Below, in pieces: positions 953-56,855 of a stretch of DNA of 64,000 bases. Made by a program: the position numbers and the translations under genes. A model generated the notes under the pieces. The model did no database searches and was not told the DNA's origin. It saw nothing but the letters and a program-made list of their open reading frames with translations. Position 1 is the stretch's first letter; every line of letters starts with the position of its first letter. The stretch lies in NCBI GenBank assembly GCA_001793945.1, contig MGIW01000003.1, forward strand, positions 129,630 to 193,629, written 5' to 3'. This DNA comes from Candidatus Wolfebacteria bacterium RIFOXYD12_FULL_48_21 (lineage in GTDB: Bacteria; Patescibacteriota; Minisyncoccia; UBA6257; UBA9933).

Positions 953-1131
953 GTATATGTTATTTAAGATGTTGACCGATCGGGTCCATCATCCTTTTAT
1001 TTATTGATTATACTGCAATAGTACACTAAAATCTTATATCTGTCCATAATTTAAACATTTAATCCTCAATTATACCCGATAAATACTGCCGTATTTTGAT
1101 ATATTTAAAAACTGTTGTATTATTTAAACAT

Positions 1132-1866
1132 ATGGACCACACAAAGGAACTAATGGTTTTAACGCATTTTGGCCTTTCCCAGGCAGAAATCGATACTTAC
1201 CTTGCTTGCCTTAAACTTGGCGGATCTCCCGCAAGCACCATAGCCAAAACAACAGGAGCAAAACGAGCCTCTATTTATGCCGTTCTTAGATCGCTCGCAG
1301 AAAAAGGGTTCGTACTCCTTTATTTCAAAAAGGGGAAACGCGTGTACCACGCCGTCGATCCGCAAAAATTGCCCCGCATCTACGAAAAGAAACTGGACAT
1401 GCTCAGTAGTATGGTCCCCTACCTAAAATCAATCGAAAAAAGCCCGTTTAAGCCATTTGGTCTCCGTTTTATTGAAACCAGAGAAGAGCTGGAATTATTT
1501 TATAATGAAACATTGACCGGTCGTACGGGTGGCGAACATTATGTCATCGGCAATGTACTCGCCTGGGAGGGAATGGCCCATGATTTTTTTAAACGATACA
1601 GAGAACAGCGAGCAAAACAGAAGATCAAAACGCGACTACTGCTTTCTGCCGAGTCGGCTTCAAGTAACCCGATAGACCAATCACTCTTGCGAGAGGTTAA
1701 ATATCTTCCGGAAAAATACAAGTTTAAGAGTACTATCAACATATTCAGCGACAGTATTTTGATCATAAGCCCCGAACTCGAATCATTGGCGGTTGCTATT
1801 ACCGTACCGGCAATGATCGATGTCTTTAGGTCGATGTTCGATATTATTTGGGATTTCATCGATTGA
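1132..1866 (+). CDS. TrmB-family HTH transcriptional regulator
   Basis: LTHFGLSQAEIDTYLACLKLGGSPASTIAKTTGAKRASIYAVLRSLAEKGFV matches the TrmB N-terminal wHTH pattern. The start was chosen at the internal Met (MDHTKEL) of ORF 1096..1866. Confidence 0.5.
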   Translation: MDHTKELMVLTHFGLSQAEIDTYLACLKLGGSPASTIAKTTGAKRASIYAVLRSLAEKGFVLLYFKKGKRVYHAVDPQKLPRIYEKKLDMLSSMVPYLKSIEKSPFKPFGLRFIETREELELFYNETLTGRTGGEHYVIGNVLAWEGMAHDFFKRYREQRAKQKIKTRLLLSAESASSNPIDQSLLREVKYLPEKYKFKSTINIFSDSILIISPELESLAVAITVPAMIDVFRSMFDIIWDFID

Positions 1867-1901
1867 TCACCTTCATACTATTCCGTCATCGCAAGACGGA
1901 T

Positions 1902-1930
1902 AATGTAACGATGTCAGACATCGTTACATT
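1902..1930. repeat. 29-bp palindrome AATGTAACGATGTCAGACATCGTTACATT (REP-like). One of 5 copies in the window; this one lies between convergent genes.
   Basis: Perfect inverted repeat. The same sequence occurs at 28430-28458, 45186-45214, 45391-45419 (imperfect) and 45929-45956. Confidence 0.7.
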
Positions 1931-2762
1931 ATTTTTCTTTGTATTGTTTGATTGTTCCGTTTTCGATGATTAACTGGACCATGCCGTCGGTGTCGGTGCG
2001 GAACAGGCGGGCTTTGGCCTGTTTGATGCGGTCCAGCACTTCAGCGGTCGGGTGGCCGTAGGAGTTCTTGCCCACCTCTATTACGGCAATCGCGGGGCTA
2101 ACTACCCGCAAAAACTCCGCGGTCGTGGAAAATCGCGACCCGTGATGCGGGATCTTCAAGATATCCGCTTTGATGTTTTTACTCCCCACAAGCTGCAACT
2201 CCGTGTCTTTGCCTATGTCGCCCGTGAACAATGCCGAGATTCCTCCGCTTGTCAGCTTTGCCACCAGCGCACCTTCATTCTTGTTTTTCCCGTGCGCGGA
2301 CAAAATATCTATCTTGCTATCCATATATCTTATGCCATCCCCTTCGCTCAAGCTGACAACCGGAATATTCTTTTCTTTTACTAAACTTGCCAGCTCCTTA
2401 AAACTTTCCGAGTTACTTCCTGTGCCGTTATATATAAATGCGCCAACCTCATAGTGCTTCAATACATCAAGCAACCCGCCAAAATGGTCAAGTTCCGCGT
2501 GCGATAGCATAATAATATCAATATAGCGGTCATGCCAAGGCAATACAGCCCCCAATTGTTGCGCGGCCTTGCCGTTTGGCGGGCCGCCATCGATCAACAA
2601 TTTTACGCCGCCCGGCATAACCACCATTTCGCTATCGCCTTGCCCTACGGCAAAGAAATATAATTCGAGCCGCTTACCAAAGTCGTCGAATACAATGCTA
2701 CCCCACGCAAGCGCATCGAGGATGACTGTGCCGACGATGATTATTTTAAGATTGATTTTCAT
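1929..2762 (-). CDS. comEC: ComEC/Rec2 C-terminal metallo-beta-lactamase domain protein (second half of a split ComEC)
   Basis: MBL motifs SHAELDHFGG and HHGS. It lies immediately downstream, on the same strand, of the ComEC membrane-domain ORF. Confidence 0.55.
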   Translation of the reverse strand: MKINLKIIIVGTVILDALAWGSIVFDDFGKRLELYFFAVGQGDSEMVVMPGGVKLLIDGGPPNGKAAQQLGAVLPWHDRYIDIIMLSHAELDHFGGLLDVLKHYEVGAFIYNGTGSNSESFKELASLVKEKNIPVVSLSEGDGIRYMDSKIDILSAHGKNKNEGALVAKLTSGGISALFTGDIGKDTELQLVGSKNIKADILKIPHHGSRFSTTAEFLRVVSPAIAVIEVGKNSYGHPTAEVLDRIKQAKARLFRTDTDGMVQLIIENGTIKQYKEK

Positions 2763-3046: not shown

Positions 3047-4486
3047 CTACGCATCGCCCAATATTTGCGTCTTGCGATGACGCAAATATAGTAGTATTCC
3101 TCCGACGACTGCGTAATAGAACAATAACAATACACCCGTCATTGGCATTGCAAATCCTTTATATGCGCCGAACAGCTCTATTACTCCTATCTCGTATTGC
3201 AACAGCACCGACACACCCCACGCGGGTATGGTCGCTAGCGGAACCGCAACAAACCCGATTGCCGCTATAAGAAATCCCAATCCCATTGTAACGGGAATAA
3301 ACGAGAGGATGACAATATTGGATGCGAGCGACACCAGCGAAAACGAACCGATTGATTGCATGAGTATGGGAAACACCATGAGCTGCGCCGACAGCGTACC
3401 CGACAAGTTTTCCCGCCAATTTAGCACGCCGCTTTTCTTTCGCTTAATGTATGCATCAAGATATGGCTTCACATAAATGATGCCTATTAGTGCGACAAAT
3501 GAAAGCTGAAACCCGAGGTCGTACCGAAGCACATTCGGGTTATACAACACCATAGCGCAGGCGCTTATGGCTATCGCGTTGCGCATGCTATGTGTGCGCC
3601 CAATGTGAGTTGCCAACAACACGATACTCCCCATGATCGCCGCGCGCACCACCGATGCTTCGGCGCCGGCCATGACCACGAAGCCTACTACAGCGCCGAG
3701 TGTTGCGTAAAACGCCGCTGTGCGGCGCAACAGCAACCCACAGGCCAACAGTATCGCTTCCGCAACCACACTAATGTTATACCCGGACAGCGCAACCAAG
3801 TGCGTCGTGCCGCTGTTTGCCATATTTTCCCTGAACTCCCAGTCGAACTCGGCGCGTTCGCCCAGTGTGATCCCCGCGAGCAGTGCCGCTTCGTCGGCAG
3901 GCAATGTCCGCTTGTATGTTTCAACGGCTGATCTTCTTATCGCAAATAGTCGCGTTACAATCGGATTGCCGTCGTTTCTTTTTACTCTATCCACTTCGGG
4001 AAATTGCATCGTTGCAAACAATGCGTCTTTCAATAAAAACCTCCAGCTATCTTCTTTTGGTCTTTGTATGTTTCCTGTCAGCACAAGCGCATCGCCATAT
4101 GCTACGGTCGGATATGCCCGAGCTACTACCGAAAGTCTTCCCGTATGCGGCTCGTCCAGCCGCACGATAAGCCTTTGGCTGTTTTCCATCTTGCGGACCT
4201 CTATTACATGCGCGCGTATTGCCGCCTGCGTGCCTATGAGCGGCGCTATTTGGTCCTGTTGATGCACATTATATCCGGTCCAATACAGCCCTCCCAATAT
4301 GCCCATGAGCGCAAGCGTAGCCAGCCACCCCAGTCGGACACTCCCTTTTTTGTATGCGATCCAACCGAGGCTTCCCGCAATGACCACAACGCTTGCGGAC
4401 ATGCCCGAGAGGTTCATTGCCGGGGCAAAAAATATGCCAAGCAGAAAAAACACGATCCCGAAAAATACGGATTCGTGGAGGTGCAT
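3047..4486 (-). CDS. comEC: ComEC/Rec2 competence-family integral membrane domain protein (first half of a split ComEC)
   Basis: 479-aa polytopic membrane protein with a ComEC-like competence domain, directly upstream and co-oriented with the MBL-domain ORF. Confidence 0.55.
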   Translation of the reverse strand: MHLHESVFFGIVFFLLGIFFAPAMNLSGMSASVVVIAGSLGWIAYKKGSVRLGWLATLALMGILGGLYWTGYNVHQQDQIAPLIGTQAAIRAHVIEVRKMENSQRLIVRLDEPHTGRLSVVARAYPTVAYGDALVLTGNIQRPKEDSWRFLLKDALFATMQFPEVDRVKRNDGNPIVTRLFAIRRSAVETYKRTLPADEAALLAGITLGERAEFDWEFRENMANSGTTHLVALSGYNISVVAEAILLACGLLLRRTAAFYATLGAVVGFVVMAGAEASVVRAAIMGSIVLLATHIGRTHSMRNAIAISACAMVLYNPNVLRYDLGFQLSFVALIGIIYVKPYLDAYIKRKKSGVLNWRENLSGTLSAQLMVFPILMQSIGSFSLVSLASNIVILSFIPVTMGLGFLIAAIGFVAVPLATIPAWGVSVLLQYEIGVIELFGAYKGFAMPMTGVLLLFYYAVVGGILLYLRHRKTQILGDA

Positions 4487-22101: not shown

Positions 22102-22151
22102 TTTTATTTGCTGTCCAAATGTACGACCGTACATTTGGACAGCAAATAAAA
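22102..22151. repeat. 40-bp perfect palindrome tttgctgtccaaatgtacg-ac-cgtacatttggacagcaaa (extends to 50 bp with the flanks). Copy 1, downstream of the PaaX-like gene.
   Basis: The 42-bp core atttgctgtccaaatgtacgaccgtacatttggacagcaaat is identical to 22847-22888. Confidence 0.8.
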
Positions 22152-22193: not shown

Positions 22194-22802
22194 TTATATT
22201 ACATGCTTTAAATTCCCAGTGCTTCCCACTTCGAATATCTCCACAAAGCCTTCAAGTTTCATTTTCATAATATCGGCGATCAATTCCTTTGGTATTTTTG
22301 TCTTCCCGATCCACACGCTTTTCTGTGCCATTTTAAAATCCAAATTCCCCAACACCATCCTTAGCCATGTACGCTTTTTCGTATATTCTTCCGGGATATC
22401 AAACATGACAATAATAACCTTATTCCCTTTTTCCTTTGGATAATACACATCGGGATATCCTTCTTTGCTTTTTAAAAATTCCAACTTCTGTTTTCCGCGT
22501 TCTGTTATTTTATATTTCTTTTTTTCCACTCCTATCTCTTCATTTATTAGCCCGTCTCTTTTTAATTTGTAGATCAGGCTATAATATCTGTTTGTCATCT
22601 TTCGCTCTTCTTCTTCGGTTCGCTTTCGCACATCGCGCCCGGTCCGTATTTTGTTTAAATTATAGTTAATGTCTATCGGCGATGCGCCGCGCCCACCTTC
22701 AACGACAGCCTCCAGCAGATCAAGCTGTGCGTCAATTCCCTCGCTTATCGCCTCCAATATTCTAAGTGATGATTTGTATCTCATGTTCTGCCTATCTTTC
22801 AT
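22194..22802 (-). CDS. PaaX-like regulator: N-terminal winged-helix HTH plus C-terminal Cas2-like (ferredoxin-fold) domain
   Basis: RYYSLIYKLKRDGLINEEIGVEKKKYKITERGKQ is wHTH-like. KVIIVMFDIPEEYTKKRTWLRMVLGNLDFKMAQKSVWIG fits the Cas2 / PaaX-middle-domain pattern (hhhhhYDh...RR.L...L..G.RVQ.SVF). Confidence 0.4.
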   Translation of the reverse strand: MKDRQNMRYKSSLRILEAISEGIDAQLDLLEAVVEGGRGASPIDINYNLNKIRTGRDVRKRTEEEERKMTNRYYSLIYKLKRDGLINEEIGVEKKKYKITERGKQKLEFLKSKEGYPDVYYPKEKGNKVIIVMFDIPEEYTKKRTWLRMVLGNLDFKMAQKSVWIGKTKIPKELIADIMKMKLEGFVEIFEVGSTGNLKHVI

Positions 22803-22846: not shown

Positions 22847-22888
22847 ATTTGCTGTCCAAATGTACGACCGTACATTTGGACAGCAAAT
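22847..22888. promoter_or_regulatory. Second copy of the 40-bp perfect palindrome, ~45 bp upstream of the PaaX-like gene start. Candidate operator.
   Basis: Identical to 22106-22147. A -10-like tatactta lies between the palindrome and the start codon on the minus strand. Confidence 0.45.
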
Positions 22889-27482: not shown

Positions 27483-28459
27483 GGCATGGGGGGGGTAAAG
27501 TATGAGGTATGAGGTATGAGGTATACGGTATACGGTATGGGAGGGGGAGAGAGATTAGAAATTAGATGTTAGAGATGAGAGATTGGAGGGGGGGGAGGGG
27601 GGAGATGAGAGGCGAGAGGTGAGAGATAAGAGATGAGAGAAAGAGGGGAGACGCGATAATTCGGCAACATTATTGTTATCCACACTTGCGCTGTTTGCCG
27701 AATGTTTTGTATACTGTAGTCAGATATACATGGGTAGCACAATTCAATATCTAACACGGCTTTGATTCCCTCTTGCGTCGGAAAAAATAAGTCACACACA
27801 CTTTAGATTACGCAACTCTTTTGTCTTGGCGTAAGCCTGACTATTCTTATTCCGAGCCGTCATCTGACGGACGACGAATTAGGACCTCGCGGTAAAGCGA
27901 TGGGATTCCGGATCAAGTCCGGAATGACAGAGAGAGGAGGCTCGGGATGACATGCCGAGTTTCGTAATTTAAAAACTCACTTGAACCGCACATGACACTC
28001 TTGCGTTTGTCATCTCGCATATGTTCGCCTCTTTTGTCTTTTTCCAAAAAGACTTTTTGTCGTTTTAGTCTGCCGCCGACAAAGTCGCATATAATGGATT
28101 CCCGCCTTCGCGGGAATGACACAGAGAAGAATCGGAATGACAAGGGGCTAAGCTGTCATCCTGAACTTGTTTCAGGATCTCATGAGAAAGAAACGAGATT
28201 CCGAAACAAGTTCGGAATGACAGATAGTCGAGGACAGGCCCTCCTCCGCCGGTATGACAGAGAGAAAGATAGGAATGGCAGAGGGAAACAAATTTCATTT
28301 TTAAAAACAAACTTCACTAAAAAAATCTCCACCCCGCACATGCAATCAATTACCAAACTTAACCAAATGAAAAAGAACTGGATACCGGCCTCCGCCGGTA
28401 TGACACAGGGGGGGGGTCGCAAGAAGAAAAATGTAACGATGTCAGACATCGTTACATTG
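27483..28459. repeat. Long repeat-laden leader: purine-rich low-complexity tracts (27483-27660), hairpin modules (27900-28440) and a REP-like 29-bp palindrome (28430-28458) upstream of the giant surface protein gene
   Basis: gagataagagatgagag-type tracts plus ggattcccgccttcgcgggaatgaca and ctggataccggcctccgccggtatgaca modules. Confidence 0.55.
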
Positions 28460-31400
28460 ATGAAGCGCGGTTTCGTATTTTCGATGGTACTGATGATGGT
28501 ATTGTCGAATGTGTTTATGGCGAACGCCGCTACCTATACCTTTACCCAGACCAACTGGAGTGGGGGAGTTACCGCAAACAATGCCGTGCATGACACGGGC
28601 AACAATCAGGCACAGCAGAGCTGGCAGCAGTTTTCCACATCAACCGCATCGCTCGCGGTAGTAAACAGCGGAGCTGATGTGCAGATCGGCACTGCGGCAT
28701 CGTCGACCACACAGAGCGACGAGGGGAGTACCGTAACTGGATTCGCACTGGCGGGTGCTTCGAACTCGCAAACGAGCGTCAGTGGATCGGGAACCGGGGC
28801 AAACGTTCAACTTGCGACCGTCCCGGGGCAGTTCGGTTCCGGCGTCGACGGGGCAGTTACGATTTCAACATCGAAAAATATCAACACCGACACGATCGCC
28901 AGCGGCCGCACCTGCGCAGATGGAATTTCATATAACATTGTCGCGCTTACCGCTAATACTGCAACCCTTTCGGGTACCCCTCCGGCGGGATGTTTTGCGG
29001 CAGGCGACAAGGTGATGATTTTGAACGAGCAGGGCTACGGCACGAATGTGACCAATGTGGGTAATTATGAATTTTTGGATGTGCAATCCATTTCGGGCAA
29101 TGTTATTACCTTTACAGAAAGCAAGACTAAATATTATGGAAATGCGGAAGGCAATGATTTTGACTATACCGATTGGCAGCAAGTTTCGGCGGGAAACAGC
29201 CATACCTCGGCGGTAAAGACCGATGGGACGCTGTGGGCGTGGGGGAATAATAGCTACGGTCAGCTTGGACTTGGCAATACCACCAGTCAGACATCGCCAG
29301 TACAGGTGGGGACCGGCACGAACTGGCAGCAAGTTTCCGCGGGCACTTACCATACCATGGCGGTCACAACCGACGGAACGCTATGGGCGTGGGGATATAA
29401 TAGCAATGGACAGCTTGGTTTGGGAGACACGACCCAGCGCACTTCACCGACACAAGTTGGCACCGGCACCAACTGGGCGTCCGTGTCTGCGGGTGGGTTC
29501 CACGCCTTGGCGGTAAAGACCGATGGGACGCTGTGGGCGTGGGGGAATAATGGCTACGGGCGATTAGGAGATGGGACCACGACCCAGCGCACTTCACCGG
29601 TGCAGATCGGAACCGATACAACCTGGCAATCCGTTTCGACGGGAGATATTCACACCTTAGCGGTAAAGACCGATGGGACGCTGTGGGCGTGGGGGCATAA
29701 TGGCTTCGGCCAGCTTGGATTGGGAGACACGACCCAGCGCACTTCACCGGTGCAGATCGGAACCGATACAACCTGGCAATCCGTTTCGGCGGGTTCATCA
29801 CACACCATGGCGGTCAAGACCGGCGGCACCCTGTGGGCGTGGGGGTATAATGGTTTAGGGCAACTCGGCCTTGGCGATACCACCCAGCGGACATCGCCGG
29901 TGCAGGTGGGGACTGATACCGACTGGCAACAGGTATCGAGTGGAGGGGGTCATAACATGGCAGTTAAAGCGGGCGTGGTGCTGGGGACGGGAAGAAATGA
30001 TGCATTTCAGCTTGGGATAACCTATAACCTAAATAGACTGGTGTTTACGCAGTCTGCGCATCAAAAAATCGTATTGCAGCGCATACCCCAGTATACCAGC
30101 GTGGATATCACGGCGACCGGCACTATAACTGCCAGCCCATGGAATGGGGAAAGAGGTGGGGTGCTTGCGTTTTATGCGAGCGGAAATGTGAATGTGCAAC
30201 TTGGAGGAAGTATCAATGTCGTAGGAAAGGGGTATCGATCTGGCAATGGAAGCAACTATGATATATATGAGGGCCTATATGATTATGGGTATGCAGGAGA
30301 GTCATATAATGACACCTTTGGTGAAGGCTATGGGGGTGGCGATGGGTATTGCTCTGAAGTTGGGGGGTGTGCAGATGGGCCCGGTGGAGGAGTCCATACG
30401 GGTGTTTATGGAGGCGCTGCACTTTCCAAGATATTTATGGGTGCTGGCGGAGGAGAGGGTGGCGGATCGCTCGGAGCTGGAGGTGGCATAGTATATATTT
30501 CATCCGATAGCTTGAGTTTAAGTGGTTCGATTTCAGTTAATGGCGGAGGTGGAGATGCGAACGGAGGTGGAGCTGGCGGATCTGCGTATCTTATCGGCGG
30601 GTCGCTTACTGTTGGTACAAATGTTCTTACTTCTACGGGAGGTACTTCTACTTCACCAAATGCAAATGGTGGGATTGGAAGAATTAAGCTTAGCTCAAGC
30701 AGCATTTCAGGAACGACTAACCCAGCTGCGGAGACTTCCGCTCTTCCAACAATATACTATACCTCCGGGGCATATATCTCGGGCGCGATGGACCTTGGTA
30801 ATGTAGGTGGATATACGACGCTTAACTACAGCGCTTCGACAACCGCTCAGACTGTGGTGACTATTGATGTGCGCGCAGGCAACACGGCCACGCCGGATGG
30901 CACTTGGACCGCGTGGACGACCGGCGTTTCGAGTGGCGGAGATATTTCTGCGCTCGGGGCAAACCGTTATTTCCAATATCGGGCGAATTTAGCGACGAGC
31001 GATAATACGCAAACGCCTGCCTTGCACGATGTTTCGGTAGGCTACAGCATTTACGCGACAGACCAGACGCTCACTTCATCGAAGTACGACACAAGCAGCG
31101 CAGACAATGCGATGGGATCCATTGCATGGGATGAGGATGCTTCATTGCCGGCCGGGACGACCGTGACGGTTTCCTTGCGCACCGCGGCAACGGAAGTGGC
31201 TCTTACCGATGCAACATGGTACGCATTCACAAACGCATCCGACGATTGTGCGAAGGTAGATACGACTGTCACCTGTCCGTCAGCCGCGCTTGCCTCTGCT
31301 TCGGCATCGCTCGCCGACAATATTGATGACCAATGGTATCAATATAAGGTGTCGGTGACTTCGACCGGCGTAAACACGCCGACCATCCCGGAGGTGCGCG

Positions 31401-43275: not shown

Positions 43276-43283
43276 GTGGACTA

Positions 43284-43324
43284 TAAAAATATCCGTCCGC
43301 CAGCTGGCGGACGGATATTTTTAT
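43284..43324. terminator. Bidirectional intrinsic terminator aaaaatatccgtccgccagctggcggacggatattttt downstream of thrS
   Basis: Perfect 11-bp stem with a 4-nt loop, an A-run 5' and a T-run 3'. Confidence 0.6.
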
Positions 43325-43325
43325 G

Positions 43326-45131
43326 TTATTTCGTCAATTCACTCTCTATTTCCTTAAGGAACACGCTTGTTTTCTTTATGCCCAGGTCGCCCTCGCCTCG
43401 CTTGCGAATGGCCACGCTTTTGGCGGCGACTTCCTTATCGCCGATAACCAATAGGTAGGGGATGCGTTTCATTTCCGCTTCGCGGATCTTTTTGCCAACG
43501 CTCCCGTCATAATCAGCCACTTCTACGCGCGCGCCCAATGCTTCAAGCTGGGCTGCGACTTCTTTTGCGTATGGAAGATGAGCTTCGCCCACATTGATGA
43601 CCTTGCACTGCACGGGGGATAGCCATGTCGGCAGGTCGCCCGCGGTCGTTTCGAGTAAGAATGAAAAGAACCGTTCGAATGACCCGAGGATGGCCCGGTG
43701 TATGACGACCACCGGCTGCTCCGTTCCATCTTTGTCTATGTAATTCAAGTTGAACTTTGCCGCGGAGTAGTAGTCTACCTGAATGGTCGCGATAGTATCT
43801 TCCTTTCCGTAAATGTTCTTGATCTGAATGTCTATCTTCGGCCCGTAGAACGATGCCTCGCCAAGCCCTTCGACGAATTCAAGTTTGAGCTTTTTAAGCA
43901 CGCTTCTCAGCACGCTTGCGCCGTCTTCCCACATTTTTTTGTTTTTTACATCGCCGTATTTCTCCTTGTTCTTGAAGTCGGGGAGGGAAAGGCGGAACCA
44001 GTAGCCACCGATGTTAAAATCATCGTAGACTTCCTTGAACAATTCGAGAATGCCGATTATTTCCGCTTCCAATTGTTCCTGCGTGGCGTAGATGTGCGAA
44101 TCGTTTTGGGTAAACCCGCGCGTGCGGATCATGCCGCTTAATGTTCCCGATCGTTCAAAGCGGAACACATTGCCGAACTCGGCCATGCGAAACGGCAGGT
44201 CGCGGTAGCTCATCAATTTATGGTTGTAAATCGAGTGATGATGTGGGCAGTTCATAGGGCGCAAATAGTAGCGCTCTCCCTCTATCTCGATCGGTGCGTA
44301 CATGTCTTCCTTATAATGGGCGAGGTGTCCGGAGGTTTTATACAACCCCTCTTTGGCCAAAATAGGCGTCAAAACATGCTTGTATCCAGCCTTTTGCTCC
44401 TTGTCGTACATGTAGGTTTCAATCAAGTGTCGCACCAAATATCCGTTCGGAAGCCACAAGGGGAGCCCTTTGCCGATCTTTTCATCTACCATAAACATGT
44501 CGAGTTTTTCGGCAAGCACGCGATGGTCGCGGCGCTCCGCCTCTGCCAACATATGCAAATGCGCTTCGAGATCTTCTTTTGTTTCAAAGGCAAGGCCGTA
44601 GATACGCGTAAGCATCGGGTTCTTTTCCGAACCTTTCCAATATGCCCCGGCGATCTTTTGCAGTTTAAATGCTTCCGGATTTATTTCTTTGGTCGATGCC
44701 ACATGCGGGCCCGCGCATAAATCGGCAAAAATCACTTCTTTACCGCTTTTTGTCGCGTACATCGTCGGCTCTTTGCCGTCTTTTTTTAGATCCTTGATCA
44801 GCTCCAATTTATATGGCTGATTTTTGAAAAACTTTTTTGCTTCGTCGTAGGTGGTCTTTTCTTTTTTAAACACCAACTCTTTTTTCATCAATCCGCGCAT
44901 GCGGTTTTCAAGCGCCTGCAAGTCTTTATCGGTCACTTTTGCGTTTCCAAAATCGAAATCATAATAAAATCCGTTTTCTATCACCGGCCCGATGCCGAGC
45001 TTGGTTCCCGAAAACTGCTTCAAAACCGCCTCTGCCAATAAGTGGGAAAGGGAGTGCCTGACCTTTTCCAAATTGTTGCCCATAGCTTTTTTACTAACAG
45101 CTTTTTTGATCGTTTTTTTCGTCGTTTTCAT
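43326..45131 (-). CDS. thrS: Threonyl-tRNA synthetase
   Basis: Class II aaRS motifs and a ThrRS-like pattern (…RDHRVLAEKLDMF…, …PMNCPHHHSIY…, the C-terminal anticodon-binding domain). Confidence 0.85.
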   Translation of the reverse strand: MKTTKKTIKKAVSKKAMGNNLEKVRHSLSHLLAEAVLKQFSGTKLGIGPVIENGFYYDFDFGNAKVTDKDLQALENRMRGLMKKELVFKKEKTTYDEAKKFFKNQPYKLELIKDLKKDGKEPTMYATKSGKEVIFADLCAGPHVASTKEINPEAFKLQKIAGAYWKGSEKNPMLTRIYGLAFETKEDLEAHLHMLAEAERRDHRVLAEKLDMFMVDEKIGKGLPLWLPNGYLVRHLIETYMYDKEQKAGYKHVLTPILAKEGLYKTSGHLAHYKEDMYAPIEIEGERYYLRPMNCPHHHSIYNHKLMSYRDLPFRMAEFGNVFRFERSGTLSGMIRTRGFTQNDSHIYATQEQLEAEIIGILELFKEVYDDFNIGGYWFRLSLPDFKNKEKYGDVKNKKMWEDGASVLRSVLKKLKLEFVEGLGEASFYGPKIDIQIKNIYGKEDTIATIQVDYYSAAKFNLNYIDKDGTEQPVVVIHRAILGSFERFFSFLLETTAGDLPTWLSPVQCKVINVGEAHLPYAKEVAAQLEALGARVEVADYDGSVGKKIREAEMKRIPYLLVIGDKEVAAKSVAIRKRGEGDLGIKKTSVFLKEIESELTK

Positions 45132-45185
45132 AGTGATGATATTACCCTTATTAAACGCCAAACCAACCAAAATTGCAAAACGCCA

Positions 45186-45214
45186 AATGTAACGATGTCT
45201 GACATCGTTACATT
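45186..45214. repeat. 29-bp REP-like palindrome AATGTAACGATGTCTGACATCGTTACATT immediately upstream of the RAYT gene
   Basis: Inverted repeat read directly from the sequence. Confidence 0.7.
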
Positions 45215-45233
45215 TGCGTGCTATTATATAAAC

Positions 45234-45914
45234 ATGTCTGAACTATACCATGCTCTTAACCGAGGAGTTGATAAGAAGAAAATATTTCTGGACAAACAGG
45301 ACCACTTGCGATTTATTCATGACCTTTATGAATTCAATGACGAAGCTCCGGCGAGCAATAATTGCCACGGCTTTCGCCGGATGCCGGTTAAATGTAACGA
45401 TGTCGGACGTCGTTATATTAAACGATCCCGATTGGTTACCATCCATGCATTCTGTCTCATGCCAAACCATTATCATCTGCTTTTAAGCCCGCGCGTCGAG
45501 AATGGTATCCCTTTATTTATGAAGAAGTTGAATGGCGGATATGCAAAGTATTTCAACGAACGATACGATCGAAAAGGGACATTATTTGAGGGAAGGTATA
45601 AGTCGGTGCCGGTAACGGCGCAATCACACTTTATTCACTTGCCCTATTATATTCACTTGAACCCGTTGGATATGTTTGATCACGGATGGCGGGATCGGGT
45701 AGTTCATAGCCATGCCGATACCATAAAATATTTGGAAAATTATCGATGGTCGAGCCATTTGGACTATTTGGGGAAAAAGAATTTCCCCTCGGTTACACAA
45801 CGAGAGTTCCTGCTCGAATTTTTTGGAGGACAGGAGGGATACGCGCAAGCGTTAGCCCAATGGGTCAAAGATATTAGTATCAACGAGATACATGACATCA
45901 TCTTAGAAAAGTGA
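45234..45914 (+). CDS. IS200/IS605-family Y1 (HuH) transposase of the REP-associated tyrosine transposase (RAYT) type, interrupted in-frame by a copy of its own palindrome (45391-45419)
   Basis: HuH motif CLMPNHYHLLL and Tyr motif GTLFEGRYKS. The palindrome is translated as …VKCNDVGRRYI… without a stop. Confidence 0.5.
   Translation: MSELYHALNRGVDKKKIFLDKQDHLRFIHDLYEFNDEAPASNNCHGFRRMPVKCNDVGRRYIKRSRLVTIHAFCLMPNHYHLLLSPRVENGIPLFMKKLNGGYAKYFNERYDRKGTLFEGRYKSVPVTAQSHFIHLPYYIHLNPLDMFDHGWRDRVVHSHADTIKYLENYRWSSHLDYLGKKNFPSVTQREFLLEFFGGQEGYAQALAQWVKDISINEIHDIILEK
45391..45419. repeat. Imperfect copy of the 29-bp palindrome inside the RAYT coding sequence
   Basis: aatgtaacgatgtcggacgtcgttatatt. Confidence 0.6.
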
Positions 45915-45928
45915 CTGCAGTAAACGCA

Positions 45929-45956
45929 AATGTAACGATGTCAGACGTCGTTACAT
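45929..45956. repeat. REP-like palindrome copy immediately downstream of the RAYT gene
   Basis: aatgtaacgatgtcagacgtcgttacat. Confidence 0.65.
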
Positions 45957-45970
45957 CGCAAGGTGTGCAT

Positions 45971-46004
45971 AAAAAGAAAGGCCCCGATTGCTCGGGGCTT
46001 TTTG
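45971..46004. terminator. Bidirectional intrinsic terminator (identical gccccgattgctcggggc hairpin)
   Basis: Third copy of the hairpin seen at 19062 and 20038. Confidence 0.5.
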
Positions 46005-46025
46005 TCGCTTCCTTAATCGCCGTTT

Positions 46026-46457
46026 TTATTCGTGGCGTTTGAGGCTGATACACTTTCGCTCGTTCGTTCGGGTATTGAGGGAGTAGGTGACGGTCATTTT
46101 CGTTCCGGGCTTTACCGCATCAAAGATCTGCGGGCTTACCCATTCGGCGAATGAATAGCCGTCATTGCAGTTGATCTGCAGCATCAGCTCACATTCTCCC
46201 GTTTTTCGGACATACTTCAATTCACCGTAGGGAACCTGTATCACGGGGGCGCCACTGTTAACGCGCGGGTAGCAGACATACTTCATCGCCACCCCTCCCT
46301 CCACCTCGTGGACCGAACTGGTCGGGTTTTTCTGCTCTTTTTTGGCTCCCCTTCGGTCTCTCACAAGGTTTAAAATAATCACCGCGAGACCGCCAATCGT
46401 TACAAAAATTGCCCCCATGACCAGCCCGAGACCCAGTTGGGCCAATAGCTTATCCAT
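46026..46457 (-). CDS. Hypothetical membrane-anchored protein. A ~46-aa hydrophobic micro-ORF overlaps its start at 46448-46588.
   Basis: N-terminal TM helix LGLGLVMGAIFVTIGGLAVIIL. Confidence 0.3.
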   Translation of the reverse strand: MDKLLAQLGLGLVMGAIFVTIGGLAVIILNLVRDRRGAKKEQKNPTSSVHEVEGGVAMKYVCYPRVNSGAPVIQVPYGELKYVRKTGECELMLQINCNDGYSFAEWVSPQIFDAVKPGTKMTVTYSLNTRTNERKCISLKRHE

Positions 46458-54202: not shown

Positions 54203-55321
54203 TCATGTATTATTTATCGGCATGATGATATAGAAATAATCTTGCACATTCATCGGCCGTATGATCGCGGGTTTATTATCCCCATTTAGTCCGATCGTTA
54301 TATTTTCCGTTTCGATATTTTTTATACCATCAAATAGAAACTTCCAGTTAAATACGATTTCCATTGAATCACCTTTTATTTTTGCCGGTATCAGATACTG
54401 ATTTTCTCCCAATATTGGGTTTGCCGAGAATAATTCTATGTTTTTTACCCCTTCTTTTATGATAACCCTGATCTCATTCATCTTATCAGAGAAAGATCCT
54501 GTCAATTTCAACGCATTTACTAATTGATCCCTATTTACCGTAATTTCTATCGCTATTTCTTTTGGGATAATTGGCTGATAATCGGGAAAATCTCCATTTA
54601 TAACCCGGGAAACCAGTTCAAATTTATCAGTTCGGAATAATATTTGATTTAAATCGAAGTAAATAGATATTTTCTCTTCGTCTTTCTCCGACATAATCCT
54701 TACCAGTTCCTGTATGGTCTTTAGCGGAACGATCATCTTCAGCTTCTGTTCTATATTTGCCTTATAACTATTTTCATCGATTGTTCTTTCTGCAAGCCTA
54801 AAACTATCCGTAGCGGCAAACTTTATGATGTTTACCTGATAATCAAACAACACGCCACCCAGCTCCGGACGAATAGCGGAACCTTGACTCGCCATAACAA
54901 TAGACAGAAAGGTATCTTTCAATAATCCGCTTTCCATCTGTAAATATTCCCTTTCGTTCTCTATTTTCGGAATAATAGGGAACTCTTCTTTTTTTGTTCC
55001 CTGTATTTTCGCCTGATAATTCTCTGTTTTTATGACCAAATTGTTATTTTTAGTCTCCAAACTAACCCGCTCGCTCTCAAGATTATTAATGATCGACGAA
55101 AGAATACTCAATGGAACCGTTATACTCCCATCTTTGATGACTTTTGCCGGAATAACACTCGATATCGCCATTTCAAGATTCGTTACCGAAAACTTTATTT
55201 TATTTTCATGTGTTTCTATAAGGCAGTTTTTCAGAATAGGGAGTGATGCATTTTCCGATCCGATTTTTCCGAGTGCAGTGATACCTTCTTTAAGGTTTGT
55301 TTTCAGTACGATGAGTTCCAT
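54203..55321 (-). CDS. dnaN: DNA polymerase III beta sliding clamp
   Basis: 372 aa with a three-domain beta-clamp pattern, directly downstream of dnaA. Confidence 0.85.
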   Translation of the reverse strand: MELIVLKTNLKEGITALGKIGSENASLPILKNCLIETHENKIKFSVTNLEMAISSVIPAKVIKDGSITVPLSILSSIINNLESERVSLETKNNNLVIKTENYQAKIQGTKKEEFPIIPKIENEREYLQMESGLLKDTFLSIVMASQGSAIRPELGGVLFDYQVNIIKFAATDSFRLAERTIDENSYKANIEQKLKMIVPLKTIQELVRIMSEKDEEKISIYFDLNQILFRTDKFELVSRVINGDFPDYQPIIPKEIAIEITVNRDQLVNALKLTGSFSDKMNEIRVIIKEGVKNIELFSANPILGENQYLIPAKIKGDSMEIVFNWKFLFDGIKNIETENITIGLNGDNKPAIIRPMNVQDYFYIIMPINNT

Positions 55322-55399
55322 AAAATAAAATTTGTTTGTAATGCATTCTTACTACTTCTGTTACTATAATATATTAAAAATAGTAGAAGCAGTAGTAGG

Positions 55400-55475
55400 G
55401 GTGTGGACAGTGTGGATAAGTGGATAATGGATAACAATAGAAACGGATTTATTTAATTCTGCAGTGTGGATAAAA
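55400..55475. promoter_or_regulatory. DnaA-box cluster in the dnaA-dnaN intergenic region (tgtggacag, tgtggataa, tggataatg, tgtggataa)
   Basis: Multiple matches to TGTGGATAA (complement TTATCCACA) within 75 bp. Confidence 0.6.
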
Positions 55476-55487
55476 AGCGGGAAAAAA

Positions 55488-56855
55488 TTATTTGCTGTTG
55501 ATAACTTCTTTAATGGAAGTTATCTTATTTCCCAGTTTTTGGTCCGAAGTCAATAATTTCGAGATTTTATCGCATGCGTGCATAACTGTTGAATGGTCTC
55601 TTTTCCCCATTTTATACCCGATATCCGAGTAGGACATCCCCAAGAGATCCTTCATAAGAAACATGGTGATCTGACGCGGTTCGACAACCTCCTTTCTTCT
55701 TCCCTGGTCGGTCAGTTCCTTTTCAGTCAGTTCAAAAAAGTTTGCAACTACCTGCATAACCTGATTTGGGGTTACATTTTTAAAGGAATGTTTGGTCGTT
55801 TTGTCGATAATTTCTTCAACAATGGATTTTGTAACCTCAATACCCTTCACATCCTGATAAAACATGATTTTTTTCAGGACGCCCTCTATTTCCCGAATGT
55901 TTCGTTGCATTTTTTCCGCAATGAACTCAGCCACTTGATCGGAAACGGTCATGCCCTCCTGTTCCAACTTCTTTTTAATGATAGCGAGGCGCATTTCATA
56001 GTCGGGATAGGATATATCCACGATCATGCCACTGCTAAAGCGGGAGCGAAGCCGTTCTTCAAGAATGGAGGTTTCGTGAGGTGGGCGATCGGAAGAAAGA
56101 ATAATCTGCTTATCGTTATCATACAGCGCATTGAATGTGTGAAAAAATTCCTCTTCACTTGCCGCCTTTCCTGCTATGAACTGAATATCGTCGATAATAA
56201 GTACATCTACCGAGCGGTATATGCGCTTCATATCTTCCATCCGCCTGTTTTTTATGGAAAAGACAATGTCATTTACGAACTTTTCCGACGGAATATATTT
56301 GACCTTAAGATTATTGCCATGGGTCTGGCGAATCTGATTTCCTATGGATTGCATCAAATGGGTCTTTCCAAGGCCGGAACCACCATAGATGAATAACGGG
56401 TTATATTTTTTACCCATATCCTTTATGACCGCAAGGGAAGCGGCATAGGCGAGTTCGTTTGAAGAGCCTACTATATATGACTTAAAGGTATATTTCGGGT
56501 GGAGGTTTGTTTCCGGGTCTATCTTAAATTCGTCAAAGGTGGCTTGTTGCGGAGCAGAGGAACGCTCCTTTTTGCTCTCTCCATGGGCTTTTTGAGACTC
56601 TGCGGGCAAGGAGGCTACCGTGTAGCGCACTTTTCTTACTGAGTCGTCAAGGGAAACAAGAATCTCGAAGATCGATTTGTGATATTTATTCTCTACCCAT
56701 TCCTTTGCGAAGTTATTGGAAAGCGCTATTACCAGCTCTCCGTCCGCCGATCGGTCGAGCAGCCTGCTGTTTTTGAACCAGGTCAAAAAGTTGGGCTGGG
56801 TCATTTGTATTTCGAGCTCCGCCAAGGCGGATTTCCAGAGTTGATCGAGTTCCAT
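55488..56855 (-). CDS. dnaA: Chromosomal replication initiator protein DnaA
   Basis: AAA+ motifs (PLFIYGGSGLGKTHL, Walker B VDVLIIDDIQF) and the C-terminal DNA-binding domain (…GRRKEVVEPRQITMFLMKDL…). Confidence 0.9.
   Translation of the reverse strand: MELDQLWKSALAELEIQMTQPNFLTWFKNSRLLDRSADGELVIALSNNFAKEWVENKYHKSIFEILVSLDDSVRKVRYTVASLPAESQKAHGESKKERSSAPQQATFDEFKIDPETNLHPKYTFKSYIVGSSNELAYAASLAVIKDMGKKYNPLFIYGGSGLGKTHLMQSIGNQIRQTHGNNLKVKYIPSEKFVNDIVFSIKNRRMEDMKRIYRSVDVLIIDDIQFIAGKAASEEEFFHTFNALYDNDKQIILSSDRPPHETSILEERLRSRFSSGMIVDISYPDYEMRLAIIKKKLEQEGMTVSDQVAEFIAEKMQRNIREIEGVLKKIMFYQDVKGIEVTKSIVEEIIDKTTKHSFKNVTPNQVMQVVANFFELTEKELTDQGRRKEVVEPRQITMFLMKDLLGMSYSDIGYKMGKRDHSTVMHACDKISKLLTSDQKLGNKITSIKEVINSK

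What the first reader, a model, noticed from the sequence alone, without database searches (positions are those of the whole stretch)
45186..45956. RAYT-type Y1 transposase flanked by, and interrupted by, its cognate 29-bp palindrome; 5 copies in the window
The ORF 45234-45914 has the HuH (NHYHLL) and catalytic Tyr (GTLFEGRYKS) motifs of IS200/REP-associated tyrosine transposases. The perfect palindrome AATGTAACGATGTCNGACATCGTTACATT occurs immediately 5' (45186) and 3' (45929) of the gene. A third copy is inserted in-frame within it (45391). More copies lie at 1902 (between convergent genes) and 28430 (in the giant-protein leader). This looks like a REP/RAYT (REPIN-like) system separate from the major hairpin family. 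The self-interrupted transposase suggests ongoing activity or decay.
Basis: partly seen in the sequence, partly recalled or inferred. Interest (0 to 1): 0.65.

Follow-up and report, generated by a model that had tools for sequence, protein, structure and literature searches.

The report
Hairpin-wrapped Y1 transposase-like gene, CPR bacteria
A tyrosine-transposase-like gene of an ultra-small (CPR/Patescibacteria) bacterium carries the same 29-base hairpin sequence in its promoter, just after its stop codon and in frame inside its own coding sequence, and this three-hairpin layout recurs in most relatives examined, each with its own hairpin sequence, so it is a built-in feature rather than damage.

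Summary
The palindrome AATGTAACGATGTCNGACATCGTTACATT occurs five times, with none expected by chance. The copies lie 5' of the gene, in frame inside it, 3' of it, and at two distant intergenic sites. The 226-aa ORF is a Y1 HUH enzyme (Pfam Y1_Tnp above threshold, TnpA-like predicted fold).

The reading "self-interrupted, active or decaying" is not supported. Among 75 homologous genes, almost all from Patescibacteria MAGs, 45 carry one lineage-specific palindrome on both flanks. Also 45 carry a matching in-frame copy inside the gene, mostly in the same loop before the HuH strand. Internal copies differ from their own flanking copies by 0.8 of 20 bases, against 9.0 between genomes. The loop has the same length with or without the palindrome. 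The encoded peptide falls in a low-confidence stretch of the predicted structure. All catalytic residues are intact.

It is best described as a REP/RAYT-like module with symmetric, tag-less hairpins. The 5' copy sits in the -35 zone of an apparently leaderless promoter.

In-frame REPs inside RAYT genes were reported only for a different subclass (2.4). This family fits subclass 2.1 by motifs, which was reported to lack REPs. I call it a new variant of a known kind.

The parts
45186..45214 (.). 5' copy of the cognate palindrome. It is perfect and extends to 16-bp arms at 45184-45216. It lies in the thrS/RAYT divergent intergenic region and overlaps the predicted -35.
   Evidence: I9. ssDNA fold -17.3 kcal/mol, z = -8.5.
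45199..45227 (+). Promoter-like site: CTGACA, 17 nt, TG-n-TATTAT. The -10 element ends 6 nt before the ATG, and no Shine-Dalgarno motif is present. This implies a leaderless transcript whose -35 lies inside the palindrome.
   Evidence: 10 of 12 matches. Family-wide, a -10-like hexamer lies 6-8 nt before the ATG in 28 of 78 genes, and an SD-like motif occurs in 1 of 78. Among neighbouring genes the SD-like motif occurs in 16 of 48. This is a consensus match only.
45234..45914 (+). 226-aa Y1 HUH enzyme gene (RAYT-like). Residues 1-145 form the Y1_Tnp core and residues 150-226 form a helical tail containing the conserved YRWSSHLDY motif.
45391..45419 (+). In-frame internal copy of the palindrome, with 2 T.G pairs. 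It encodes K53-I62 in the low-confidence loop between helix 27-33 and strand 68-75.
   Evidence: One search gives pLDDT below 50 for residues 43-61. One search shows the family consensus NDVxRRYI at this position. One search shows the same codon frame in 24 of 28 genes.
45468..45476 (+). HuH motif codons (H79-Y80-H81).
   Evidence: Invariant in alignment A1. Aligned to the ISDra2 TnpA HuH motif.
45648..45665 (+). Y motif Y139-I-H-L-N143-P144, carrying the predicted catalytic tyrosine and the metal-site Asn.
   Evidence: Y139, N143 and other residues of the motif are invariant and P144 nearly so (at least 90%). The Pfam profile end aligns to residue 141. The motif matches the class-2 'Y---NP' signature (PMC6006769).
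45929..45957 (.). 3' copy of the palindrome (2 mismatches), 15 nt after the stop codon.
45981..46004 (.). GC-rich hairpin GGCCCCGATTGCTCGGGGC with T-runs on both strands. It is a likely bidirectional terminator shared with the convergent gene 46026-46457(-).
   Evidence: One search scored it on the - strand. The TTTTT on the + strand is visible.
1902..1930 (.). Dispersed solo copy (perfect) between convergent ORFs 1096-1866(+) and 1929-2762(-).
   Evidence: The same site is occupied in related contigs L088 and L095.
28430..28458 (.). Dispersed solo copy (perfect), 1 nt upstream of the ATG at 28460 of the giant RCC1-repeat protein.

Best explanation
This is a REPtron-like module: a Y1 HUH single-strand DNA endonuclease/transferase gene together with its cognate hairpin.

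What I infer about how it works, by analogy to IS608 TnpA and E. coli TnpAREP:
- The enzyme carries HuH H79/H81, catalytic Y139 and N143.
- It would recognise the 29-31 nt palindrome when it folds as a hairpin on single-stranded DNA, then cut and rejoin DNA at it.
- That activity would seed solo copies elsewhere in the genome and keep the copies alike.

What is shown:
- The gene is tightly bracketed by the hairpin. One copy lies in the -35/spacer zone of its own promoter. The transcript looks leaderless, but this rests on consensus matches only. Another copy lies at the stop codon.
- A third copy lies in frame in a low-confidence loop before the HuH strand.
- This three-copy layout is ancestral to a large Patescibacteria family. 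The three copies evolve in concert within each lineage but differ between lineages.
- The internal copy is therefore a maintained part of the module, not damage.

What I infer about the roles of the copies:
- The promoter copy, and possibly the internal copy, give the enzyme a handle on its own expression (negative feedback).
- The internal copy persists because the loop tolerates any peptide, and because hairpin-directed conversion or template switching keeps re-perfecting it.
For: Enzyme:
- Pfam Y1_Tnp E = 2.7e-10, above the gathering score.
- H79, H81, Y138, Y139 and N143 are invariant in 27 homologues; P144 is nearly invariant.
- The AF2 model's best PDB matches are ISDra2 and IS608 TnpA and TnpAREP 4ER8.

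The repeat is real and cognate:
- Five copies against 0 expected.
- In 75 homologous genes, 45 have the same palindrome on both flanks and 45 have an internal copy matching a flank. Among control ORFs at most 7 of 152 show this.
- Paralogues in one MAG or one locus each have a different palindrome (L044/L054/L073, L066, L070).

Concerted evolution:
- Internal copies differ from their own flanking copies by 0.8 mismatches per 20 nt (n = 50). Between genomes the figure is 9.0 (n = 1350).
- A stepwise series is seen in syntenic relatives at 91%, 79% and 75% identity.

The internal copy is not an insertion:
- Loop length is a median of 40 aa with and without it.
- The centre falls in the same codon frame in 24 of 28 genes.
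- pLDDT is below 50 for residues 43-61.
- The hairpins share a core GAnnTC-N-GAnnTC, with compensatory variation at stem positions 3, 4 and 7-9.
- A subfamily has two in-frame copies read in different frames. This shows that the DNA element, not the peptide, is what is kept.

Dispersal:
- At least 8 distinct solo sites: two in the window (one of them also occupied in related contigs) and six more in related metagenome contigs.
- About 2.5 solo copies per 100 kb across 44 loci.

Promoter overlap.
Against: - No biochemical evidence exists for binding or cleavage.
- Copy number is low, roughly 25 per Mb by extrapolation, far below classical REP families.
- The hairpins lack the 5' GT[AG]G guide that defines canonical REPs, and the NCBIfam RAYT model scores below its cutoff.
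- No filled-versus-empty site pair was recovered, so mobility of solo copies is inferred, not shown.
- A test for strand-specific (G.T versus A.C) tolerance was inconclusive, 14 against 10. A single-stranded or RNA form is therefore not demonstrated.
- 30 of 75 genes lack a clear internal copy, so it is dispensable.
- Hairpin divergence tracks protein divergence only weakly (rho 0.18; 121 of 2000 permutations reached the observed value).
Confidence: 0.78

Rival explanations
1. The hairpin-gene-hairpin unit is an autonomous IS200-like insertion sequence. The flanking palindromes are its left and right subterminal hairpins, and the whole cassette transposes. Solo palindromes are footprints or abortive products.
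For: - The gene is bracketed exactly, with one hairpin in the promoter and one at or overlapping the stop codon.
- Synteny with thrS and dnaE is kept only among close relatives, in 2-3 of 80 species-level loci.
- In L086 the cassette sits on the other side of two small genes, and a solo hairpin lies next to thrS, the position the cassette occupies in the window.
Against: - There is one copy in 64 kb and one triple per related contig.
- Paralogues within a MAG are 43-49% identical to the query and carry different hairpins; they are not near-identical IS copies.
- The Y motif is the class-2 'Y---NP', not the IS200 'Y---Q'. The protein is 226 aa with a tail domain, against about 150 aa for IS200 TnpA (PMC6006769, Table 1).
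- The left and right hairpins are identical symmetric palindromes with no fixed relative orientation. IS200/IS605 ends are distinct and co-oriented.
Confidence: 0.12
2. The palindromes are double-stranded operator sites for a dimeric DNA-binding protein. That protein could be this one, through its helical tail, or another regulator. The system would then be transcriptional control and insulation only, with no DNA cutting or copying.
For: - The palindromes have perfect two-fold symmetry.
- The 5' copy overlaps the -35 of the gene's own promoter.
- Subclass 2.1 tails resemble HTH domains (PMC6006769).
- One solo copy lies immediately upstream of a start codon and another at a gene's 3' end.
Against: - Palindromy runs uninterrupted to a 1-nt centre, or closes a 3-7 nt asymmetric loop (ATCGCAA). 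Stem pairing is preserved by compensatory changes, which is the signature of a folded hairpin rather than two half-sites.
- The catalytic HuH and Tyr residues are invariant across thousands of homologues, which pure repressors would not need.
- A copy inside the coding region and copies at stop codons are hard to explain as operators.
Confidence: 0.07
3. This is the first reader's view: a REP copy recently jumped into the transposase gene, marking ongoing activity or the start of pseudogenisation.
For: - The internal copy is the most degenerate of the five (2 mismatches; DNA fold -8.2 kcal/mol).
- In-frame REP insertions into RAYT genes are known in subclass 2.4 (PMC6006769).
Against: - The ORF is intact and all catalytic residues are present.
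- The same in-frame element is at the same codon position in relatives from 91% down to about 45% identity.
- The loop is no longer than in homologues lacking the copy.
Confidence: 0.03

Closest known systems
REPtron: TnpAREP/RAYT gene flanked by its cognate REPs (E. coli YafM; structure 4ER8; Nunvar 2010; Ton-Hoang 2012; Bertels & Rainey 2011)
   Same: - A low-copy Y1 HUH gene with the class-2 Y---NP motif.
- The gene is flanked on both sides by a genome-specific palindrome that also occurs as dispersed extragenic copies.
- Several gene/repeat pairs can coexist in one genome, each with its own repeat.
   Different: - There is no GT[AG]G foot. The hairpins are fully symmetric, with long 11-19 bp stems and usually a 1-nt centre.
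- Copies are mostly single, not REPIN doublets or BIMEs.
- Copy number is low.
- The protein fails the NCBIfam REP_Tyr_transpos cutoff.
- The host is Patescibacteria.
TnpAY1 subclass 2.4 (Bertels group 4; cyanobacteria, Bacteroidetes): REPs inserted in frame within tnpAREP (Quentin et al. 2018, PMC6006769)
   Same: The gene's own cognate REP lies inside its coding sequence without breaking the frame, in a peripheral region of the protein.
   Different: [quoted passage not shown]
- Here the main site is N-terminal to HuH (the alphaA-beta2 loop) and a second site lies after the Y motif. Position and frame are conserved, and loop length is unchanged.
- The protein motifs differ: NHYH/FE/YIHLNP here against NH[IFV]H/WQ/YIxNNP.
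TnpAY1 subclass 2.1 / TIRYT (Bertels group 1; Di Nocera 2013, PMC3733652; Quentin 2018)
   Same: The motif signature NH[YF]H, F[QE] and Y[IV]HLNP, a length of about 230-238 aa, and a tail with a conserved SS motif (YRWSS) all match the second signature given for subclass 2.1.
   Different: Subclass 2.1 was reported to have no REP-like sequences, or long terminal inverted repeats with a GGGG[AT][CG]A[CG] motif. Here both flanks carry a complete short palindrome that is also dispersed and also intragenic. Assignment is by motif inspection only.
IS200/IS605 TnpA (IS608, ISDra2)
   Same: The predicted fold and HuH/Tyr chemistry match. Subterminal hairpins bracket the gene, and the promoter lies within the left hairpin region.
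   Different: - Y---Q motif in IS200 against Y---NP here.
- About 150 aa core only, against 226 aa here.
- Multi-copy with near-identical copies.
- Left and right hairpins are different, imperfect and co-oriented.
Rickettsia palindromic elements (RPE) and intragenic REPs (cited in PMC3733652)
   Same: Palindromic repeats are tolerated in frame inside functional protein genes, presumably in surface loops.
   Different: Those are insertions into unrelated host genes and add length. Here the host gene is the repeat's own enzyme, and the element is conserved in place.

Membership tests
Y1 HUH transposase superfamily (Pfam PF01797 Y1_Tnp) | Profile HMM match above the curated gathering score | tested here: met
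   40.9 bits against a cutoff of 23, E = 2.7e-10, residues 62-141.
Y1 HUH transposase superfamily (Pfam PF01797 Y1_Tnp) | HuH metal-binding motif and a single catalytic Tyr in a Y-x-x-x-(Q/N) helix | tested here: met
   H79-Y-H81, Y139 and N143 are invariant in 27 homologues. The HuH strand aligns to ISDra2 TnpA.
Y1 HUH transposase superfamily (Pfam PF01797 Y1_Tnp) | TnpA-like alpha/beta fold | tested here: met
   Foldseek best hits are 2XM3, 2VJV, 4ER8 and 2F4F, E about 1e-4, TM to target 0.44-0.62. The model is of only moderate quality (pLDDT 69).
Y1 HUH transposase superfamily (Pfam PF01797 Y1_Tnp) | Sequence-specific cleavage and joining of hairpin-containing ssDNA | not testable with these tools
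   Needs biochemistry.
RAYT / TnpAREP (REP-associated tyrosine transposase) | NCBIfam NF047646 equivalog score at or above cutoff | tested here: not met
   35.8 bits against a cutoff of 80.
RAYT / TnpAREP (REP-associated tyrosine transposase) | Class-2 Y motif Y---NP | tested here: met
   Y139-IHL-N143-P144 (PMC6006769).
RAYT / TnpAREP (REP-associated tyrosine transposase) | Gene flanked on both sides by its cognate palindromic repeat | tested here: met
   Window copies at 45186 and 45929. 45 of 75 homologous genes show this, against at most 7 of 152 control ORFs.
RAYT / TnpAREP (REP-associated tyrosine transposase) | The same repeat dispersed at many extragenic sites of the genome | tested here: inconclusive
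   Two solo copies in 64 kb, at least 8 distinct solo sites when related metagenome contigs are included, and about 2.5 per 100 kb in 44 loci. No complete genome could be counted.
RAYT / TnpAREP (REP-associated tyrosine transposase) | REP with an unpaired 5' GT[AG]G guide at the hairpin foot, commonly as inverted doublets (REPIN/BIME) | tested here: not met
   The palindromes are symmetric with no conserved unpaired tag, and the window copies are singlets. A doublet is seen only in some relatives, for example the L085 5' flank.
RAYT / TnpAREP (REP-associated tyrosine transposase) | Low copy number per genome, with paralogues divergent and each paired to its own repeat | tested here: met
   One gene in the window. 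L044, L054 and L073 come from one MAG and each has a different hairpin, as do the paralogues in L066 and L070.
IS200/IS605 insertion sequence (TnpAY1 subclass 1.1) | Y[IV]ENQ-type Y motif, a core-only protein of about 150 aa, and multiple near-identical copies | tested here: not met
   The Y motif is YIHLNP, the protein is 226 aa with a tail, and it is single copy in the sequence held.
TnpAY1 subclass 2.1 (Quentin 2018) / TIRYT | Motifs NH[YF]H, FQ and Y[IV]HLNP, about 238 aa, and a proximal tail with an SS motif | tested here: met
   NHYH, LFEG (FQ in several homologues), YIHLNP, YRWSS and 226 aa. This rests on inspection against Table 1 of PMC6006769, not on their HMMs.
TnpAY1 subclass 2.1 (Quentin 2018) / TIRYT | No REP-like repeats, or long TIRs with GGGG[AT][CG]A[CG] | tested here: not met
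   Short complete palindromes lie on both flanks and no GGGGWSAS motif is present.
TnpAY1 subclass 2.4 (in-frame REPs within tnpAREP) | [quoted passage not shown] | tested here: not met
   The motifs differ. The internal copy lies before HuH (residues 53-62), and the second site in L055 and L066 lies after the Y motif.

The most novel reading that the evidence does not exclude
The in-frame hairpin is a functional cis-element of a self-referential system. The enzyme acts on hairpins within and around its own gene. This would both throttle its own expression and let enzyme-catalysed hairpin exchange or conversion keep gene-borne and genome-borne copies identical. The gene would then physically carry a 'master copy' of its substrate, so that enzyme and substrate specificity are inherited and diversify together. 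Patescibacteria would supply thousands of natural enzyme-hairpin pairs, with covarying stem positions 3, 4 and 7-9, from which a recognition code for Y1 HUH enzymes could be read.
Probability: 0.3. Interest if true: 0.75.

Novelty: new variant of a known kind. Interest (0 to 1): 0.55.

Why it matters
RAYT/REP systems have been studied almost entirely in Proteobacteria and cyanobacteria. How a Y1 enzyme and its hairpin co-evolve, and what these single-copy "domesticated" transposases do, remain open questions.

This finding adds three things:
- A very large, well-conserved family in streamlined Patescibacteria genomes: 4840 database hits, typically about 60% identical, and at least 575 GTDB species.
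- Each member pairs the enzyme with a short, easily read symmetric hairpin.
- The hairpin is embedded in the gene's own promoter, coding sequence and 3' end.

It extends in-frame self-REPs beyond the one subclass (2.4) where they were considered unique. It also shows repeat association for a subclass-2.1-like lineage that was reported to lack REPs.

The natural covariation set could be used to derive hairpin-recognition rules. Such rules are useful for HUH-tag and ssDNA-tool engineering. The set could also be used to test autoregulation and concerted-evolution models.

Tried and rejected
- Strand-specific wobble test (G.T against A.C mispairs in gene-associated copies), meant to separate a one-strand or RNA hairpin from duplex DNA. 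The counts were 14 against 10, which is inconclusive.
- Correlation of hairpin distance with protein distance. It was weak: rho 0.18, with 121 of 2000 permutations reaching the observed value.
- Search for an orthologue of the giant protein's N-terminus, to recover an empty site for the 28430 copy. The search was swamped by RCC1-repeat proteins, with no close orthologue. No filled/empty pair was obtained.
- Rfam scan of 44900-46200. Only sub-threshold, terminator-like matches were found.
- PDB sequence searches with the protein and with the family profile reached only ISDra2 TnpA around the HuH strand. They did not help place the Tyr.
- CGTC-tagged REPs (Di Nocera 2013) were considered because several relatives' hairpins contain CGTC. 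I rejected this: in those REPs CGTC is an unpaired terminal tag on 8-9 bp stems with a CCA tail, whereas here it is inside the stem.
- Selection on the peptide rather than the DNA. I rejected this because 4 of 28 first-site copies are in other frames, the second internal site is read in another frame, and the peptide changes with the hairpin.
- Literature searches for RAYT or REPtron in CPR/Patescibacteria found nothing relevant.
Full report
**1. Observation**

The 29-nt pattern AATGTAACGATGTCNGACATCGTTACATT occurs at 1902, 28430 and 45186 (perfect) and at 45391 and 45929 (2 mismatches each). None was found in 100 shuffles.

The ORF 45234-45914 (+) is intact and 226 aa long. The start at 45234 agrees with the N-termini of homologues. 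The longer mechanical ORF from 45042 would overlap the divergent thrS gene.

- The 5' copy ends 20 nt before the ATG.
- The internal copy is in frame (K53-I62, KCNDVGRRYI).
- The 3' copy begins 15 nt after the stop codon and is followed by a GC hairpin with T-runs at 45981-46004.
- All five copies fold as 12-15 bp ssDNA hairpins.

**2. The protein**

Pfam Y1_Tnp matches above its gathering score (40.9 against 23 bits). NCBIfam REP_Tyr_transpos matches below its cutoff (35.8 against 80).

A database search gave 4840 homologues. They are about 225 aa long and typically about 60% identical. Where a source names them, the names are Wolfebacteria, Jorgensenbacteria, Parcubacteria and Patescibacteria.

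In alignment A1, H79, H81, Y138, Y139 and N143 are invariant and P144 is nearly invariant.

The signature NHYH / F[EQ] / YIHLNP / YRWSS at about 230 aa matches the second signature listed for TnpAY1 subclass 2.1 in Quentin et al. 2018 (PMC6006769, Table 1). The class-2 Y motif Y---NP places the catalytic Tyr at Y139.

An AF2 model (pLDDT 69) finds ISDra2 and IS608 TnpA and E. coli TnpAREP (4ER8) as its best PDB matches. Residues 43-61, which include most of the palindrome-encoded peptide, have pLDDT below 50. They lie between helix 27-33 and strand 68-75, N-terminal to the HuH strand.

**3. The internal copy is a conserved feature, not an interruption**

In A1 the family consensus at this position is NDVxRRYI. 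I fetched 80 loci from GTDB species representatives, nearly all Patescibacteria MAGs, and analysed 75 genes.

- 48 genes have a clear palindrome at the homologous in-frame position. In most of these the same lineage-specific palindrome recurs 8-40 nt upstream of the start codon and 0-23 nt after the stop codon.
- Starting instead from the flanks, 45 of 75 genes carry one palindrome on both flanks, and 45 of 75 have an internal copy matching a flank. Among control ORFs from the same loci, at most 7 of 152 show this. Some of those may be unrecognised family members.
- Internal copies differ from their own flanking copies by a mean of 0.8 of 20 positions (n = 50). Against other genomes' copies the mean is 9.0 (n = 1350).

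Syntenic close relatives (thrS-gene-...-dnaE) show the change step by step:

| Locus | Identity to window protein | Hairpin |
|---|---|---|
| window | - | ...ACGATGTC-N-GACATCGT... |
| L082 | 91% | ...ACGACGTC-G-GACGTCGT... in all three copies |
| L083 | 79% | AATATAACGAC-ATCGCAA-GTCGTTATATT |
| L084 | 75% | AAAGTAACGTC-ATCGCAA-GACGTTAC |

- The encoded peptide changes along with the hairpin: CNDVGRRYI, then RNDIASRYI, then SNVIARRYI.
- L085 and L086 keep the flanking copies but have lost the internal one.
- The loop between the EFND and MPNHYH motifs has a median of 40 aa both with the copy (n = 33) and without it (n = 19), p = 0.28. The copy is therefore not added length.
- 24 of 28 internal hairpins with a 1-nt loop are in the same codon frame. 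They share a core GAnnTC-N-GAnnTC, with several Watson-Crick pair types at stem positions 3, 4 and 7-9.
- A subfamily (L055, L066) has two in-frame copies. The second lies after the Y motif and is read in another frame as YGGSTSI.
- In L022 and L007 the internal palindrome is 39 nt, longer than the core shared with the flanks.

Together these results show that the DNA element, not the peptide, is being maintained, and that it is maintained in place.

**4. Dispersal and mobility**

An exact-pattern scan of metagenome contigs found the triple in related populations. With the window's own solo copies, this makes at least 8 distinct solo sites, one of which is shared with the window.

Across 44 loci, cognate palindromes occur away from the gene at about 2.5 per 100 kb. 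This makes it a low-copy family.

Synteny with thrS and dnaE is seen in only 2-3 of 80 species-level loci. In L086 the cassette lies on the other side of two small genes, with a solo hairpin next to thrS, the position the cassette occupies in the window. The cassette therefore relocates over longer times.

I could not obtain a filled/empty pair.

**5. Expression context**

A promoter-like site (CTGACA-17-TATTAT, 10 of 12 matches) puts the -35 inside the 5' palindrome. The -10 ends 6 nt before the ATG.

Family-wide, a -10-like hexamer ends 6-8 nt before the ATG in 28 of 78 genes. An SD-like motif is present in 1 of 78, against 16 of 48 neighbouring genes. This suggests a leaderless mRNA whose core promoter overlaps the 5' hairpin. 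These are consensus matches, not measurements.

**6. Interpretation**

*Shown:* a catalytically intact Y1 HUH gene with a cognate, concertedly evolving hairpin at its promoter, in frame in a low-confidence loop, and at its stop codon, plus dispersed solo copies. The layout is ancestral to a large Patescibacteria family.

*Inferred from IS608 TnpA and TnpAREP biochemistry (established knowledge; 4ER8, PMC3479197):* the enzyme binds the folded hairpin on ssDNA and cuts and rejoins there, dispersing and homogenising copies.

*Inferred from position:* the promoter copy, and possibly the internal copy, provide negative feedback. Persistence of the internal copy needs either selection or continual conversion or template switching. 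Neutral decay would erase a palindrome at these divergences.

*Rivals:* an IS200-like autonomous cassette (some support from relocation; contradicted by copy number, the Y motif and the identical symmetric ends), a duplex operator only, and a recent disruptive insertion (contradicted).

**7. Relation to what is known**

In-frame REPs inside tnpAREP were described only for subclass 2.4. [quoted passage not shown] Subclass 2.1 was reported to have no REPs (PMC6006769). CPR genomes were not in that study. Searches of the paper library found nothing on RAYT or REPtron in CPR.

The hairpins lack the GT[AG]G foot of canonical REPs. They are also not the CGTC-tagged REPs of Di Nocera 2013.

**Verdict:** a new variant of a known kind (a REP/RAYT-type module), of moderate interest.

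Noticed in passing
window 22102-22151, 22194-22802(-), 22847-22888: A 202-aa wHTH + PaaX_M/Cas2-like protein (Pfam PF20803, E = 1.6e-10) is bracketed by two identical long perfect palindromes (core TTGCTGTCCAAATGTACG-ac-CGTACATTTGGACAGCAA, arms up to 24 nt). This is a second gene wrapped by its own palindrome. The palindrome is unrelated in sequence to the Y1 hairpin.
   Followed up: partly
window 3015, 24582, 26947, 28248, 28394, 35327, 36063, 43250, 51096, 60669: The motif GCCGG[TGA]ATGACA occurs 10 times, all on the + strand, against 0.29 expected. In the copies read around 28380-28405 it is the 3' arm and tail of a small hairpin (ATACCGGC-ctcc-GCCGGTAT-GACA). One copy lies 25 nt upstream of the 28430 palindrome, and the same motif abuts the palindrome in metagenome locus L093.
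   Followed up: partly
window 1881-1897 and 3069-3081(-): A small hairpin CCGTC-ATCGCAA-GACGG directly abuts the solo palindrome at 1902. Its 7-nt loop ATCGCAA is the loop of the cognate hairpins of relatives L083, L084, L085, L013 and L021. It may be a relic of an older hairpin type in this lineage.
   Followed up: no
L086 3453, 4167, 4908 compared with window 45186-45957: In the 67%-identical relative the order is thrS-hairpin-[141 aa, 40 aa]-hairpin-gene-hairpin-dnaE. In the window it is thrS-hairpin-gene-hairpin-[143 aa, 46 aa]-dnaE. This is a local segment swap with hairpins at the junctions.
   Followed up: partly
L055 5531 and 5811; L066 1910 and 2205: A subfamily with the hairpin GGAGGTT-N-AACCTC carries two in-frame internal copies. 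One is in the loop before HuH (read as MEVEPRY). The other is just after the Y motif (read as YGGSTSI). That makes four copies per gene of about 700 bp.
   Followed up: partly
window 43283-43324: A perfect 42-nt palindrome (ATAAAAATATCCGTCCGCCAG/CTGGCGGACGGATATTTTTAT) lies immediately downstream of the thrS stop codon (43326). It is terminator-like and is not a member of the Y1 hairpin family.
   Followed up: no
window 27992/28460-34711 (+): The giant ORF (2239 aa as listed mechanically) has a signal peptide starting at 28460 and an RCC1-repeat N-terminal region. Its best database hits are RCC1-family proteins, at most 64% identical over about half of the query.
   Followed up: partly
window 54203-56855(-); L083 and L086: ORFs at the positions corresponding to dnaN and dnaA lie 8-11 kb from the Y1 gene in the window. 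The called, Pfam-annotated dnaN and dnaA genes lie at that distance in syntenic relatives L083 and L086. In this lineage the module therefore sits near the presumed replication origin.
   Followed up: no
L038 10843 and 17005: Two solo copies of that locus's hairpin share identical flanks of at least 22 nt on both sides. The hairpin there is part of a larger duplicated unit.
   Followed up: no
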